Shown piece by piece: positions 8,200 to 44,962 of a stretch of 64,000 bases of DNA. The notes under the pieces were generated by a model. That model saw only the letters and a list, made by a program, of their open reading frames with translations. It was not told the DNA's origin and searched no databases. The stretch spans positions 64,001 to 128,000 of the forward strand of contig CAWKBC010000007.1 in assembly GCA_963847705.1 (NCBI GenBank), read 5' to 3'. A program made the translations under genes and the position numbers. Source of the DNA: an uncultured Pseudomonadota bacterium (GTDB taxonomy: Bacteria; Myxococcota_A; Polyangia; Fen-1088). Numbering within the stretch: the first letter of the stretch is position 1; each line of letters opens with the position of its first letter.

Positions 8200-8286
8200 C
8201 GACCCAATCCCCGACCGCGGACACCACCTGGCGCTCGCCGCGGAGGGGAACTACCCCCTCCGCGCGCGCAAGGTAACGCTTCTCGC

Positions 8287-8705
<419 letters not shown>

Positions 8706-9558: not shown

Positions 9559-9631
9559 TGGGCCCACCTGGATTCGAACCAGGGACCAGGCGGTTATGAG
9601 CCGCCAGCTCTGACCGCTGAGCTATGGGCCC
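9559..9631 (-). tRNA. tRNA-Ile2 (CAT anticodon, lysidine-modified); CCA not encoded
   Basis: GGGCCCATAGCTCAGCGGTCAGAGC-TGGCGG-CTCATAA-CCGCC-TGGTC-CCTGGTTCGAATCCAGG-TGGGCCCA cloverleaf. G1-C72 pairing and the acceptor sequence fit Ile2 rather than fMet. Confidence 0.9.
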
Positions 9632-11192: not shown

Positions 11193-12485
11193 ATGCCCGC
11201 GCTCGTCCCCGCGCCGATGCTCAAAATCGAGTTCGAAACGTACGCACTGGCCAACGGGCTACGGGTGATCCTCCACACGGATCGATCGAGCCCGCTCGTG
11301 GCCGTCGATCTCTGGTACCACGTCGGCTCCAAGGATGAGGTGCCCGGACGGACCGGCTTCGCGCACCTGTTCGAGCACCTGATGTTCATGGGGTCGCGCC
11401 ACGCCCCCTACCCGGCGTTCGACGCGATCATGGAGAGCTGGGGCGGACACAACAACGGCACCACCAGCAACGACCGCACGAACTACTACGAGATCGGGCC
11501 GCGCAACCTGCTGGAGACGTTCCTCTGGCTGGAGGCCGATCGCCTGGCCACGCTACCCGACGTGATCACCGCCGAGGAGCTGGAGAAGCAGCTCAAGGTG
11601 GTTCAGAACGAGCGGCGGCAATCCTACGAGAACCGCCCCTACGGACGCGCCGAGCTGGCCATTCCCGAGGCGATGTACCCGGCCGACCACCCCTACCACT
11701 GGCCGACCATCGGTTCGCACGAAGATCTGGAGGCGGCCACCGTCGACGACGTGCGGGCCTTCTTCGATCGGTTCTACCGCCCGTCGAACGCCAGTCTGGT
11801 GGTCGCGGGCGACTTCGATCCGGCTCAGGCGCGCGCGCTCATCGACCGTTACTTCGGCTGGCAGCCGAAGCGCGAGCCGGCCCAGCGCGCGCCGCACCCC
11901 GCGGCGCCCCGCCTGGCGGCCGACGTCGAGATCACGCTGACCGATCGGGTGCAGCTGCCGCGGCTGAGGCTGGCCTGGCACACGCCGGCGCTGTTCGCTC
12001 CGGGCGACGCCGACCTCGATCTGGCGGCGCACGTCCTGGGCGGCGGCAAGTCGAGCCGACTCTACCGCGCGCTGGTGTTCGAACGGCGCATCGCGCAGGA
12101 CGTCTTCGCCTACCAGGGGTCGCAGATGCTGGGCAGCGTCTTCCACATCGGCGCCACGGCCAAACCGGATCACGATCTCACCGAGATCGGCGCGGCGGTC
12201 GACGCCGAGATCGCGCGTCTCGCCTCCGACGGACCGACCGAGGCCGAGCTGGCGCGCGCCCGCAACACCCACCTGGCCGACTTCTACAAGGGGCTCGATC
12301 ACCTGCAGACGCGGGCCGATCTGCTGAACCACTACCAGAATTTGTTCGGCGATCCGGACGGTGTGGGACGCGACGTCGCCCGCTACGCCGACGCGACCTG
12401 CGCCTCGGTGCGCGACGCCTTCGCGCGCGCGCTGGCGGGAAAGCGGCTGGCGCTGCAGACGCTCCCCGACCCGGTGACGGCGTGA
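11193..12485 (+). CDS. M16 (pitrilysin-family) zinc peptidase, catalytic subunit
   Basis: LANGLRV...GSKDE...GFAHLFEHLMF (HxxEH); alternative start at 11217. Confidence 0.93.
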   Translation: MPALVPAPMLKIEFETYALANGLRVILHTDRSSPLVAVDLWYHVGSKDEVPGRTGFAHLFEHLMFMGSRHAPYPAFDAIMESWGGHNNGTTSNDRTNYYEIGPRNLLETFLWLEADRLATLPDVITAEELEKQLKVVQNERRQSYENRPYGRAELAIPEAMYPADHPYHWPTIGSHEDLEAATVDDVRAFFDRFYRPSNASLVVAGDFDPAQARALIDRYFGWQPKREPAQRAPHPAAPRLAADVEITLTDRVQLPRLRLAWHTPALFAPGDADLDLAAHVLGGGKSSRLYRALVFERRIAQDVFAYQGSQMLGSVFHIGATAKPDHDLTEIGAAVDAEIARLASDGPTEAELARARNTHLADFYKGLDHLQTRADLLNHYQNLFGDPDGVGRDVARYADATCASVRDAFARALAGKRLALQTLPDPVTA

Positions 12486-13858
12486 TCGAAGCGCCTGCGG
12501 CGATGGCCGCGGCGCCGGCCGTCGGGCCGCTGCCGAGCGTGATCCCTCCGACCGCCGACCGCTTCACGCTGTCGAACGGCCTCGAGGTGGTGACCGTGCG
12601 GCGCGACGTGGCGCCGATCGTCTCGGCGGCGCTCATGATCCGCAGCGGCGCGGGGAACGATGTGCCCGAGCTGTCGGGCCTGGCTTCACTGACCGCGGAG
12701 ATGCTCGACGAGGGGGCCGGCACGCGCGACGCCCTCACGCTGGCCGACGAGCTCGAACGGCTGGGCGCCGATCTCTGGTTGGGCAGCGGCCGCGACGGCT
12801 CGCAGCTCTCGGTCCAGGCGCCGCACGACACCTTCTTTGCGGCGCTGGACATCGCGGGCGACGTTCTCGTGCGCCCGCGCCTGACCGACTCCGACTGGGA
12901 GCGCGTGCTGGCCGATCGCAAGACCGCCAACGCGCAGCGCCGCGACCAGCCGGAAGCGGTCGTCAGCGTCGTCTCGGATCGGCTGCTGTTCGGAGAGTCC
13001 CACCCCTACGGCCGCCCGGTGGAGGGGTTCACCCGCACGCTCGAGCGCCTGTCGCTCGACGACGTCCGCGCCTTTCATGAAATGCACTGGCGGCCAAACC
13101 ACGCCTTTCTGGTGGTGGCCGGGGCCTTCGACCAGGGGAGCCTGCGCGCGCGGCTCGAGGCGGCCCTGGGCGCCTGGACCGGCACGGCCCCGCCCGAGCC
13201 GGCGGCGCCGCCGGCCTGGCCCGCGCGCCCACGCCTCTGCATCGTCGATCGCCCGGGCGCGCCCCAGAGCATCGTGCGGCTGGTGGCGCCGGGGACCGAT
13301 CGCCTGTCCCCCGATCGTCCGGGACTGGCGATGCTGAACGCCATCCTGGGCGGCAGCTTCACCAGCCGGCTCAACTTCAACCTGCGCGAGAAGAACGGCT
13401 TCACCTACGGCGCCTCGTCGAGCTTCGCCTTCCTGCGCCGGCCCGGCAGCTTCGCCGCGCGGGCCGCCGTGTTCGCCGAGTCGACCGCGCCAGCGGTCCG
13501 CGAGATGCTGAGCGAGCTCACCGGCCTGCACGAGCGCCCGGTGACGAGCGAGGAGCACGCCAAGGCGCGGGCCACCCTGTTGATGCGCGTCGCCGAGGGG
13601 TTGTCGACCACCGGCGGCATCGCCGCCAGCTTCGGCGACATCGGCCTTTACGGGCTGCCGCTCGACGAGCCGCTCCGCTTTGTCGCCGCGCTCGAGCGAA
13701 CCACCGCCGACGACCTGCGGGCGCTGGCCGCGCGCTACATCGACCCGGACGCGGCCAGCATCGTCATCGTGGGCGATCGCGCCGCCATCGAGCCGGGGCT
13801 GCGCGAGCTCGGCTTGCCCGCGCCCGAGATCCGCGACGCCGACGGCGACCCCGTTTAG
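12482..13858 (+). CDS. M16 peptidase, non-catalytic partner subunit
   Basis: LSNGLEV; lacks HxxEH (SLTAEML); LGGSFTSRLNFNLREKNGFTYG carries the R/Y pair; GTGA overlap. Confidence 0.92.
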   Translation: MIEAPAAMAAAPAVGPLPSVIPPTADRFTLSNGLEVVTVRRDVAPIVSAALMIRSGAGNDVPELSGLASLTAEMLDEGAGTRDALTLADELERLGADLWLGSGRDGSQLSVQAPHDTFFAALDIAGDVLVRPRLTDSDWERVLADRKTANAQRRDQPEAVVSVVSDRLLFGESHPYGRPVEGFTRTLERLSLDDVRAFHEMHWRPNHAFLVVAGAFDQGSLRARLEAALGAWTGTAPPEPAAPPAWPARPRLCIVDRPGAPQSIVRLVAPGTDRLSPDRPGLAMLNAILGGSFTSRLNFNLREKNGFTYGASSSFAFLRRPGSFAARAAVFAESTAPAVREMLSELTGLHERPVTSEEHAKARATLLMRVAEGLSTTGGIAASFGDIGLYGLPLDEPLRFVAALERTTADDLRALAARYIDPDAASIVIVGDRAAIEPGLRELGLPAPEIRDADGDPV

Positions 13859-13860
13859 GC

Positions 13861-14230
13861 GCTCCGCTCGGTTTCACTCGGGGGCGGCGGGGGCCGGGGA
13901 GCTCCTCGGCCTACGCACCTAAAAGGTTGGAATCGTCGGGCGGAACAACAGAGCCGCCCGACTCAGCTTCGGCCGAGGAGCTCCCCGGCCCCCGCCGCGC
14001 CTGCGTTCCACCTCGGCTCCGCTTCGGTCCGCTCCGGATCAGACCACCGAGCGGAACGTAGCGCGGCTCTCCGGCAAGCGAGAGGGCCGGGCGTTCGGTC
14101 GGCCGAAGCTGAGGACGGCGGCTCTGTTGTTCCGCCTGCCGATTCCAACCCCTCGGGTGCGTAGGCCGACCGAATACCCGTCCCCCTCGCCCCCGCCGCA
14201 GGGTCTGAGCGGAGCGGAGCGCAGCGAAGC
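13861..14230. repeat. Inverted duplicate of a 71-nt structured element, each copy closed by a long stem
   Basis: 13906-13976 and the reverse complement of 14099-14169 are identical except in two helix regions, where some changes are compensatory. Confidence 0.85.
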
Positions 14231-14238
14231 CGCGGTCG

Positions 14239-14736
14239 TCAGCCGCTGGAGGCGACGGTGCGGAGGGTCTGGCGGAGCTTGGTGCGGGCGCGCATCAGGC
14301 GGGTGCCGACCGTGGAACGCGGGATGGTGAGCTTGTCCGCGATCTCGTCGTAGCTGCAGTTCTCGAGCAGGCGCAGCTCGTACACCTCGCGGAACGGCCG
14401 CTCCAGATCGGCCAGCGCGGCATGGATCTGCTCCTGGGTGATCGTCTCCCAGGCCTCCGGTACGTAGGGCTCCGGGCCGGCCACCTCGTGGTCGTCCAGC
14501 GAGAACGAGCGGGGCTCGCGCGCCAGGCGGCGGCAGCGATCCAGAAACAGGTTGTACATGATGGTCATCAACCAGTGCCGCAGGTTGGTGCCCGGGGTGA
14601 AGCTCGCCTTCCCCCGCAGCGCCCGTTCGTAGGTGTCCTGAACGAGATCCAGTGCGTCCGACCGGCTGCGCAGGAGACGCATTGCGCGGGCATAGAGCAC
14701 CGGTTCGTACCGCGAGGCCATTTCATCTGGATGCAT
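14239..14736 (-). CDS. ECF RNA polymerase sigma factor
   Basis: DALDLVQDTYERA...FTPGTNLRHWLMTIMYNLFLD...SYDEIA...STVGTRLMRAR. Start is 14736 or 14721, constrained by the sigma54 promoter. Confidence 0.92.
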   Translation of the reverse strand: MHPDEMASRYEPVLYARAMRLLRSRSDALDLVQDTYERALRGKASFTPGTNLRHWLMTIMYNLFLDRCRRLAREPRSFSLDDHEVAGPEPYVPEAWETITQEQIHAALADLERPFREVYELRLLENCSYDEIADKLTIPRSTVGTRLMRARTKLRQTLRTVASSG

Positions 14737-44719: not shown

Positions 44720-44782
44720 TTGCCAGAGTTCGGCCCACCTCATTTGAAGCGCCCGGAACCCTGACGGGCGTCCGTCAGATCG

Positions 44783-44940
44783 GTGCGGATCGAGCGCCGC
44801 CGCCCGGACCGCGCCGAGGGCCGCACCGGACTTTTTCGGCGGCGTGGGCTGCGTCTCGCAATTGAAAGGGCAGCCCACGCCGCCGAAAAAGTTCCGCGCG
44901 GCCCTCGGCTTGGACCCGAGCAGCGGCGTTCATCCGCGCG
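44783..44940. repeat. Long imperfect palindrome with a perfect 23-bp core
   Basis: 44830-44852 is the exact reverse complement of 44870-44892 (17-nt loop); the arms extend imperfectly to about 70 bp. Confidence 0.85.
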
Positions 44941-44962
44941 TAATGGGGGTCGCCTTCGGCTC

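What the first reader, a model, noticed from the sequence alone, without database searches (positions are those of the whole stretch)
13884..14190. Inverted twin of a covarying three-way-junction element with a kink-turn-like motif between convergent genes (candidate new structured RNA or ssDNA motif)
Seen: a 71-nt core occurs twice in opposite orientation (13906-13976 and 14099-14169). Read as UCGGCC-GAA-GCU-GA-[stem]-CUCUGUUGUU-[stem]-GA-UUC-CA-ACC(N5)GGU-GCGUA-GGCCGA, the linkers and the large loop are identical. The differences sit in the two hairpins and include compensatory swaps: acct/aggt vs accc/gggt, and t-a vs g-c at the base of the long hairpin, although copy B also has two mismatches there. 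The closing stems have different sequences yet both pair (perfect 22-bp extension in copy A, imperfect ~21 bp in copy B). Established: a helix, a 3-nt bulge ending in U and tandem G.A/A.G pairs define a kink-turn, and GAA-GCU-GA-G...C-GA-UUC fits this. Inference: this is a selected structure such as a ncRNA, 3'-UTR regulator, ribozyme-like or REP/HUH-type ssDNA element. A read-through transcript from either convergent gene (M16 peptidase pair or ECF sigma) would carry one sense copy.
Basis: partly seen in the sequence, partly recalled or inferred. Interest (0 to 1): 0.75.

Follow-up and report, generated by a model that had tools for sequence, protein, structure and literature searches.

The report
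Branched-hairpin jumping DNA repeat pair
The two inverted cores are two units of a ~170-base repeat found 12 times in this genome and at many different gene ends across one bacterial genus; it is likely a REP-like jumping element read as folded single-stranded DNA rather than an RNA gene, and the enzyme that would move it was not found.

Summary
It has 12 copies here, occurs in 14 of 26 genomes of the genus and was not found in 140 other genomes of the phylum (68, low sensitivity). Rfam has no match. The fold covaries strongly: 32 of 42 pairs change on both sides. This site is empty in 16 of 19 congeners, inverted in one and reduced to a tail in one. Units sit between convergent genes (84 of 100 loci, baseline 17%). 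All 47 pairs lie 5'-to-5' with their tails outward; tails usually face stop codons, TAG enriched. One strand carries 310 versus 11 GCGNAGC DNA mini-hairpins and folds best with DNA parameters. Best reading: a REP/REPIN-like non-autonomous ssDNA element. No cognate enzyme was found among seven families tested.

The parts
12482..13858 (+). M16 peptidase gene (second of a pair); its TAG stop lies 1-2 nt from unit A's tail
   Evidence: PF05193, PF00675
13859..13871 (-). 3' tail of unit A (GAGCG repeat containing a GCGGAGC mini-hairpin motif)
   Evidence: sequence; conserved in the family
13884..13998 (-). unit A: 28-bp stalk (22 bp plus 6 bp of the core) closing the branched head
   Evidence: model hit 13878-13997 minus, 138 bits
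13906..13976 (-). head of A: GNA/GNA internal loop, 2-bp helix P1b, TGA, P2 with a 10-nt conserved loop, GATTCCA, P3 with a TTT loop
14010..14027 (-). 5' leader of unit A (GCGGAGC motif followed by CGAGGT)
14028..14048 (.). short spacer between the 5' ends of A and B; variable in length and sequence across doublets
14049..14064 (+). 5' leader of unit B (two GNA motifs)
14078..14190 (+). unit B: imperfect stalk of about 27 bp with the B-type base of the head
   Evidence: model hit 14078-14197 plus, 116 bits
14099..14169 (+). head of B: P1b 14108-09 with 14159-60; P2 14113-21 with 14132-40; loop 14122-31; GATTCCA 14141-47; P3 14148-58
14207..14230 (+). 3' tail of unit B: tandem GAGCG with four GCGNAGC motifs
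   Evidence: sequence
14239..14721 (-). ECF sigma factor gene, convergent; its TGA stop lies 8 nt beyond B's tail
   Evidence: PF04542, PF08281

Best explanation
The pair is an A+B doublet of a genus-restricted, multi-copy repeat whose presence and orientation vary between relatives at this site, and it is likely a non-autonomous REP/REPIN-like mobile element that acts as folded single-stranded DNA. SHOWN: copy number, genus restriction among the genomes searched, empty, inverted and remnant alleles, covariation of the stalk and three-way head, 5'-to-5' doublets, tails facing stop codons of convergent genes, and one-strand bias of GCGNAGC motifs and G.T/G.A pairs. INFERRED: when that strand is single-stranded (replication fork or supercoiling between convergent genes), the ~27-bp stalk and head fold and the GCGNAGC caps form DNA mini-hairpins. 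A trans-acting nuclease, most likely HUH/RAYT-like (about 35%; not identified), would bind the conserved unpaired head bases, nick at CT-type sites a variable distance beyond the tail, and transfer the strand into CTA-type sites, which are plentiful at TAG stops between convergent genes. The free 3' end would also prime fold-back template switches, giving the appended 3' half-units, inversions and deletions. Any effect on host mRNA ends would be secondary.
For: 12 copies in G000; 14 of 26 congeners; 61 of 80 metagenome loci. Of 19 congeners with the M16|sigma junction, 2 carry the doublet (G021 in the opposite orientation), 1 a 27-nt tail remnant, 16 nothing; five metagenome alleles show A+B, A+B+half-A, B+B, tail+B and one cut by the contig end. 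114 flanking genes form 87 unrelated clusters. 47 of 47 pairs are 5'-to-5'; about 40 are A+B after correcting 8 mistyped calls by eye. Heads are more alike within genomes (90%) than between them (83%), with lineage-specific compensatory states. 84 of 100 loci are convergent versus 846 of 4928 gene pairs in G000. TAG at 94 of 176 adjacent stops and 29 of 41 within 6 nt, versus 40%. GCGNAGC 310 versus 11 in 164 units; these 7-mers form DNA mini-hairpins with Tm 70-76 C, and the RNA hairpin tested there was far weaker (PMC13037366, passages). With DNA parameters the junction is recovered on that strand in 34 of 69 versus 3 of 69 on the other; with RNA parameters 15 versus 16. IS110 elements sit inside heads at 2 loci, as for REPs (PMC3733652, passage). 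REP heterodimers and convergent positions within 20 bp of ORFs are described (PMC3733652); TnpA-REP cuts at CT on either side and far from the hairpin (PMC3479197).
Against: No enzyme gene lies beside any copy examined. PF01797 finds nothing in G000. A TIR-flanked Y1 HUH element has 3 copies in G000, but none of 30 such loci carries the repeat, and its distribution does not match: absent from repeat-rich G018 and G003, abundant in G008, G015 and G004, which have no model hit. There is no GTAG or CGTC foot, and units are 4-8 times longer than REPs. Strand asymmetry is weak when distinct variants are counted (G.T 15 vs A.C 13, G.A 11 vs C.T 9; 27 vs 12 and 7 vs 5). Folding results depend on parameters. 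The TAG baseline comes from G000 only and loci are not independent. Many loci are shared between species, so turnover may be slow and partly loss rather than gain. Single units are common, so the mobile unit (monomer or doublet) is unsettled. Fold-back products could come from host repair alone.
Confidence: 0.62

Rival explanations
1. A structured RNA (k-junction-like 3'-UTR or antisense module) that a protein or ligand binds, spread and kept for an effect on mRNA ends.
For: Tandem G.A/A.G in 62 of 69 heads, an invariant U at the L3 position, and P3 continuous with P1b match the k-junction layout in PMC4005666 (passages). Conserved unpaired bases. Position at 3' ends. Element-like contigs occur in a soil RNA library.
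Against: A repeated variant replaces the 1b.1n G.A by A.C (6 of 69). G013-type and type-2 heads lack the tandem. The site is empty in most relatives. The folded strand is antisense to the upstream gene in 9 of 12 co-directional singles, though these are only 3 versus 3 independent loci. No promoter-like site and no U-tract after the stalks. No Rfam hit. RNA contigs give no strand or level.
Confidence: 0.15
2. A retro-mobile element: an RNA copied by a reverse transcriptase (msDNA-like or target-primed), leaving 5'-truncated copies with a fixed 3' tail.
For: Appended partial copies keep the 3' tail and have variable 5' ends. The size is near myxobacterial msDNA (162 nt). msd-like repeats are reported in Nannocystis (PMC6868368, passages and reference list).
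Against: None of 8 RT loci in 5 genomes has the repeat nearby. Half-units usually join by short microhomology and often copy the partner at the same locus (30, 61), which fits fold-back or slippage.
Confidence: 0.08
3. A classical MITE moved by a DDE transposase with a CTAG-type target duplication.
For: The G013 composite has CTAG-based direct repeats on both sides, up to 10 nt at L386. TAG enrichment.
Against: No terminal inverted repeats at the outer ends, only subterminal GAGCG motifs at variable distance from the junction. Such a transposase would not need a one-strand branched fold. No IS with matching ends was seen; empty sites were too diverged to score duplications.
Confidence: 0.07
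4. Old hairpin debris kept similar by gene conversion and host repair, with no dedicated enzyme today.
For: No enzyme found. Many deletions, chimeras and tandem halves. The genome holds several other GAGCG-type repeat families.
Against: Two-sided changes in 32 of 42 pairs with conserved unpaired bases, near-identical lineage-specific expansions such as G013, and presence at new loci.
Confidence: 0.05
5. A new self-cleaving ribozyme or a natural DNA catalyst.
For: A compact junction with conserved unpaired bases; some truncated copies begin near GATTCC (22, 30).
Against: No Rfam ribozyme hit at E up to 10 (4). The hammerhead GAAA is absent on the folded strand (0 of 69). Truncation points vary widely.
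Confidence: 0.03

Closest known systems
REP / REPIN / BIME elements with RAYT (TnpA-REP) HUH nucleases
   Same: Intergenic, multi-copy, inverted doublets that are often heterodimers, near 3' ends of convergent genes, patchy among relatives, targeted by IS110 (PMC3733652, PMC3116915, PMC3479197, passages).
   Different: Units are about 170 nt with a three-way head rather than 20-40-nt hairpins; no GTAG foot; each unit folds on its own; GCGNAGC caps at both ends; no flanked RAYT found.
CGTC REPs and TIR/TIRYT repeats (PMC3733652)
   Same: Repeats in dimers, some without a known transposase.
   Different: No CGTC tag; the Y1 element in this genus has its own unrelated terminal repeats.
Long MITE-like repeats (ERIC, RUP, SPRITE, bcr1; PMC3184786)
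   Same: 100-250 nt, stable folds, 3'-end or convergent bias.
   Different: No terminal inverted repeats, one-strand fold, A+B pairing, conserved branched head.
Kink-turn / k-junction RNA motif (PMC4005666)
   Same: Three bases then tandem G.A/A.G next to a helix, with a third helix in the opposite strand.
Phage and plasmid single-strand initiation hairpins (G4 origin, RSF1010 ssiA, N4 promoter; PMC13037366)
   Same: GCGNAGC-type DNA mini-hairpins in one-strand structures.
   Different: Chromosomal and dispersed; no Prim-Pol found in 5 genomes; the RepB' search was uninformative.

Membership tests
REP/REPIN (RAYT system) | multi-copy extragenic palindromic repeat | tested here: met
REP/REPIN (RAYT system) | inverted doublets, often heterodimeric | tested here: met
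   47 of 47 pairs inverted 5'-to-5', about 40 A+B
REP/REPIN (RAYT system) | 20-40 nt hairpin with a GTAG/GTGG (or CGTC) tetranucleotide at the 5' foot | tested here: not met
   units about 170 nt with GCGNAGC leaders
REP/REPIN (RAYT system) | cognate Y1 HUH gene flanked by the repeat | tested here: inconclusive
   none, but genomes are 68-95% complete and repeats often end contigs
REP/REPIN (RAYT system) | cleavage and strand transfer at CT on ssDNA | not testable with these tools
   only indirect: TAG/CTA enrichment
MITE (DDE) | terminal inverted repeats at the outer ends | tested here: not met
MITE (DDE) | fixed target-site duplication | tested here: inconclusive
   CTAG-based direct repeats in G013 only; empty sites too diverged
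kink-turn (standard) | canonical C helix 5' of an unpaired 3-nt bulge | tested here: not met
   0 of 3 pairs covary; L1/L2 pair elsewhere
k-junction | tandem G.A/A.G on the NC helix with a third helix in the non-bulged strand | tested here: inconclusive
   62 of 69 type-1 heads; A.C variant and sister types lack it
k-junction | RNA molecule that kinks with Mg or L7Ae | not testable with these tools
   no stranded reads were available
retron msr-msd | ncRNA next to a retron RT gene | tested here: not met
   8 RT loci in 5 genomes without the repeat
any Rfam family | match at gathering score | tested here: not met

The most novel reading that the evidence does not exclude
This is the visible part of an undescribed class of modular ssDNA mobile elements: interchangeable 170-250-nt branched units (A, B, type 2, C) that share GCGNAGC-capped ends, pair 5'-to-5', target stop codons of convergent genes, and are moved by an enzyme outside the RAYT, IS91, IS110, RT, DUF559 and GIY-YIG groups tested. 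The head would be a naturally evolved, covarying DNA three-way junction.
Probability: 0.2. Interest if true: 0.8.

Novelty: new variant of a known kind. Interest (0 to 1): 0.48.

Why it matters
Natural structured single-stranded DNA motifs with deep covariation are few, and the known REP hairpins are small. This family gives a large alignment of a likely DNA three-way junction in which G.A pairs replace Watson-Crick pairs, plus many natural rearrangement products at one site, so REP-type spread without a neighbouring RAYT can be studied. It is also a caution for RNA-motif screens: strong covariation and a k-turn-like pattern can come from a mobile DNA repeat.

Tried and rejected
Rfam at E up to 10 gave only unrelated hairpin families below their cut-offs; six family loci and the whole window gave nothing at gathering score for the repeat. 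Enzyme searches, each checked for the repeat nearby and negative: Y1 PF01797 (4 loci), Y1-like TIR element (30 loci), RT (8 loci), DUF559 (4 loci, flanked by a different repeat in two), GIY-YIG (13 loci), IS91 (8 loci), IS110 elsewhere in genomes (8 loci), Prim-Pol (0 of 5 genomes). RepB' (84) rang in no control and says nothing. Pfam on 56 of 146 flanking proteins showed no mobile-element family; the 105 metagenome flanking proteins were clustered but not scanned as a set. A single-copy gene next to some copies (P0001) is in 25 of 26 congeners and so does not track the repeat. The 13 non-Polyangia genome hits and 3 viral hits of the pattern scan lack the stalk and are chance. RNA runs share under 0.1 of words and are contigs only; depth over the repeat is summed from many loci and shows neither strand nor level. 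A likeness to the TPP riboswitch motifs (recalled, not from a call) had no Rfam support. A gene-orientation rule beyond convergent position was not shown: co-directional singles give 3 versus 3 independent loci. Filled-versus-empty comparison for three G013 loci could not define a target duplication.

Full report
1. Observation. The two 71-nt cores are present at the stated coordinates and differ at 9 positions, all in the two hairpins; the closing stems extend 22 bp (perfect) and about 21 bp (imperfect). Both arms fold far better than shuffles. They lie in a 380-nt gap between an M16 peptidase gene and a convergent ECF sigma gene. Rfam has no match.

2. It is a dispersed repeat. The genome holds 7 close copies and 5 copies of a sister type. 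Each unit is about 170 nt: a 5' leader with GCGNAGC motifs, a stalk of about 27 bp, the head, and a GAGCG tail. I call the strand that reads this way the folded strand (minus for A, plus for B). BLAST finds it in 15 of 24 same-genus relatives. A covariance model finds it in 14 of 26 genomes of the genus including this one and in 0 of 140 others of the phylum (only 25 candidates were scored per genome). A pattern scan of the species-level genome collection gave 60 loci; the 13 whose titles were not Polyangia or unclassified proteobacterium, and 3 viral hits, lack the stalk. The host is therefore inferred to be a Polyangia (Myxococcota) genus. Of 80 listed metagenome loci (88 found), 61 carry the unit. 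On a one-gene tree the repeat-rich genomes fall in several separate clades.

3. Structure. In 69 aligned type-1 heads, 96.2% of 2887 cells pair, 32 of 42 pairs change on both sides, no shuffle of 500 reaches this, and slid controls pair at 41-48% (kin are not independent). The supported fold is: stalk, GNA/GNA internal loop, 2-bp helix P1b, junction TGA, P2 (9 bp, conserved 10-nt loop), junction GATTCCA, P3 (2-3-nt pyrimidine loop). G.A replaces Watson-Crick pairs in P1, P1b and P2, and the GNA/GNA loop is occasionally fully paired. A k-junction, with the third helix in the non-bulged strand and L1/L2 paired (PMC4005666, passages), still fits 62 of 69 heads. However, 6 heads have A.C at the 1b.1n position, and the G013 and type-2 heads lack the tandem.

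4. DNA or RNA. GCGNAGC occurs 310 times on the folded strand and 11 times on the other in 164 units, with all four N. These 7-mers form DNA mini-hairpins of Tm 70-76 C, while the RNA hairpin tested there melted at 39 C (PMC13037366, passages). G.T and G.A mismatches outnumber their mirror images on that strand (84 vs 12 and 36 vs 5 by sequence, but only 27 vs 12 and 7 vs 5 by distinct variant). DNA parameters recover the junction on the folded strand in 34 of 69 and on the other in 3; RNA parameters give 15 and 16. There is no promoter-like site and no U-tract after either stalk. Public RNA data were contigs only and are uninformative. The DNA reading is thus favoured but indirect.

5. Mobility. 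Of 22 sigma orthologues, 19 had the M16 gene adjacent: 2 carry the doublet (G021 inverted), 1 keeps a 27-nt tail remnant, and 16 lack it, one of these holding a different repeat. Five metagenome alleles of the same site show A+B, A+B+half-A, B+B, tail+B and one cut by the contig end. The 114 genes facing outer tails form 87 clusters, and 105 face with their stop codon. 84 of 100 loci are convergent against 17% of gene pairs in G000; in convergent singles the tail is the nearer end in 34 of 38 (medians 18.5 and 86 nt; five loci were left out as duplicates, IS-split or ambiguous). All 47 neighbouring full-length pairs are 5'-to-5'; the script typed 32 as A+B and I corrected 8 more by eye, leaving one chimera, one A+A locus seen twice, one B+B and three involving type 2. 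Heads are 90% alike within and 83% between genomes. TAG is over-represented at adjacent stops (94 of 176; 29 of 41 within 6 nt; baseline 40%). In G013, B travels in a ~460-nt composite with another branched partner, C, which shares the tail, with CTAG at both ends. Extra 3' half-units are appended after tails, joined by microhomology and often copied from the partner. Two different IS110 elements sit inside heads.

6. Mechanism. These traits match REP/REPIN biology: heterodimers, convergent positions within 20 bp of ORFs and IS targeting (PMC3733652, passages), doublets as mobile units (PMC3116915, passages), and TnpA-REP cutting ssDNA at CT on either side and far from the hairpin (PMC3479197, passages). 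I infer a trans-acting nuclease, most likely HUH, that binds the folded head, nicks beyond the tail and joins at CTA-type sites; the free 3' end explains fold-back halves. The enzyme is not shown. No Y1, RT, DUF559, GIY-YIG, IS91, IS110 or Prim-Pol locus examined was flanked by the repeat, and the Y1-like element of this genus has a mismatched distribution. The genomes are 68-95% complete.

7. Known or new. It works like a REPIN but fails the REP size and GTAG/CGTC tests, so it is not filed as a REP. Searches found no description of this family; the library lacks most subscription papers, and no supplements were read. Papers seen as passages: PMC3733652, PMC3116915, PMC6006769, PMC3479197, PMC13037366, PMC4005666, PMC3184786, PMC6868368. 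PMC1525189 was seen only as a listing with the start of its abstract. The scan's index gave nothing relevant.

8. Verdict. A real, strongly covarying and apparently undescribed repeat family; most likely a long, branched REP/REPIN-like ssDNA element rather than a new RNA gene. Interest 0.48; new variant of a known kind.

Noticed in passing
window 8284-8704 (minus) and 9559-9631 (minus): RNase P class A RNA and a tRNA gene.
   Followed up: no
window ~44760-44960 (G000:C7:108830-108892): A second long-hairpin repeat family with CTTTTT...AAAAAG stalks: 12 copies seen in G000, matches in 12 of 26 congeners. Its stalk resembles partner C.
   Followed up: partly
L387:1225-1470; G013, G022, G018: Unit C: a branched hairpin with an AT-rich head that shares the GAGCG tail and pairs with B, A or C.
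   Followed up: partly
L006:571-1617 (P0001); G000:C18:6834-7865: Single-copy gene in 25 of 26 congeners, 70-90% identical, no Pfam hit. It looks like an IS21 IstA lacking catalytic acidic residues (recalled likeness, untested). Its 3' gap holds different repeat families in different species.
   Followed up: partly
G000:C2:31464-32087, C29:169520-170143, C47:43889-44512: TIR-flanked Y1 HUH element missed by the PF01797 search in G000; up to 40 matches per genome in congeners. The C47 copy abuts a 74-nt GAGCG-type repeat.
   Followed up: partly
L261:700-2170; L292:160-1640: Two different IS110-family elements inserted inside the repeat head.
   Followed up: partly
L186, L187: DUF559 nuclease genes flanked on both sides by their own hairpin repeats, in a REPtron-like layout; similar repeats stand alone at gene ends in G004 and G022.
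   Followed up: no
G000 intergenic regions, e.g. C31:1-340, C16:33200-33450, C14:25100-25450: Several further short repeat families carrying GAGCGNAGC, some in tandem arrays.
   Followed up: no
L094, L095, L100: A 440-480-aa reverse transcriptase with a long N-terminal extension in G001, G019 and G021; class not determined.
   Followed up: no
L012, L026, L043, L047, L066, L163, L289: A Fic-domain gene is followed by the repeat in seven loci, with type 1 in some species and type 2 in others: a hotspot or replacement in place.
   Followed up: partly
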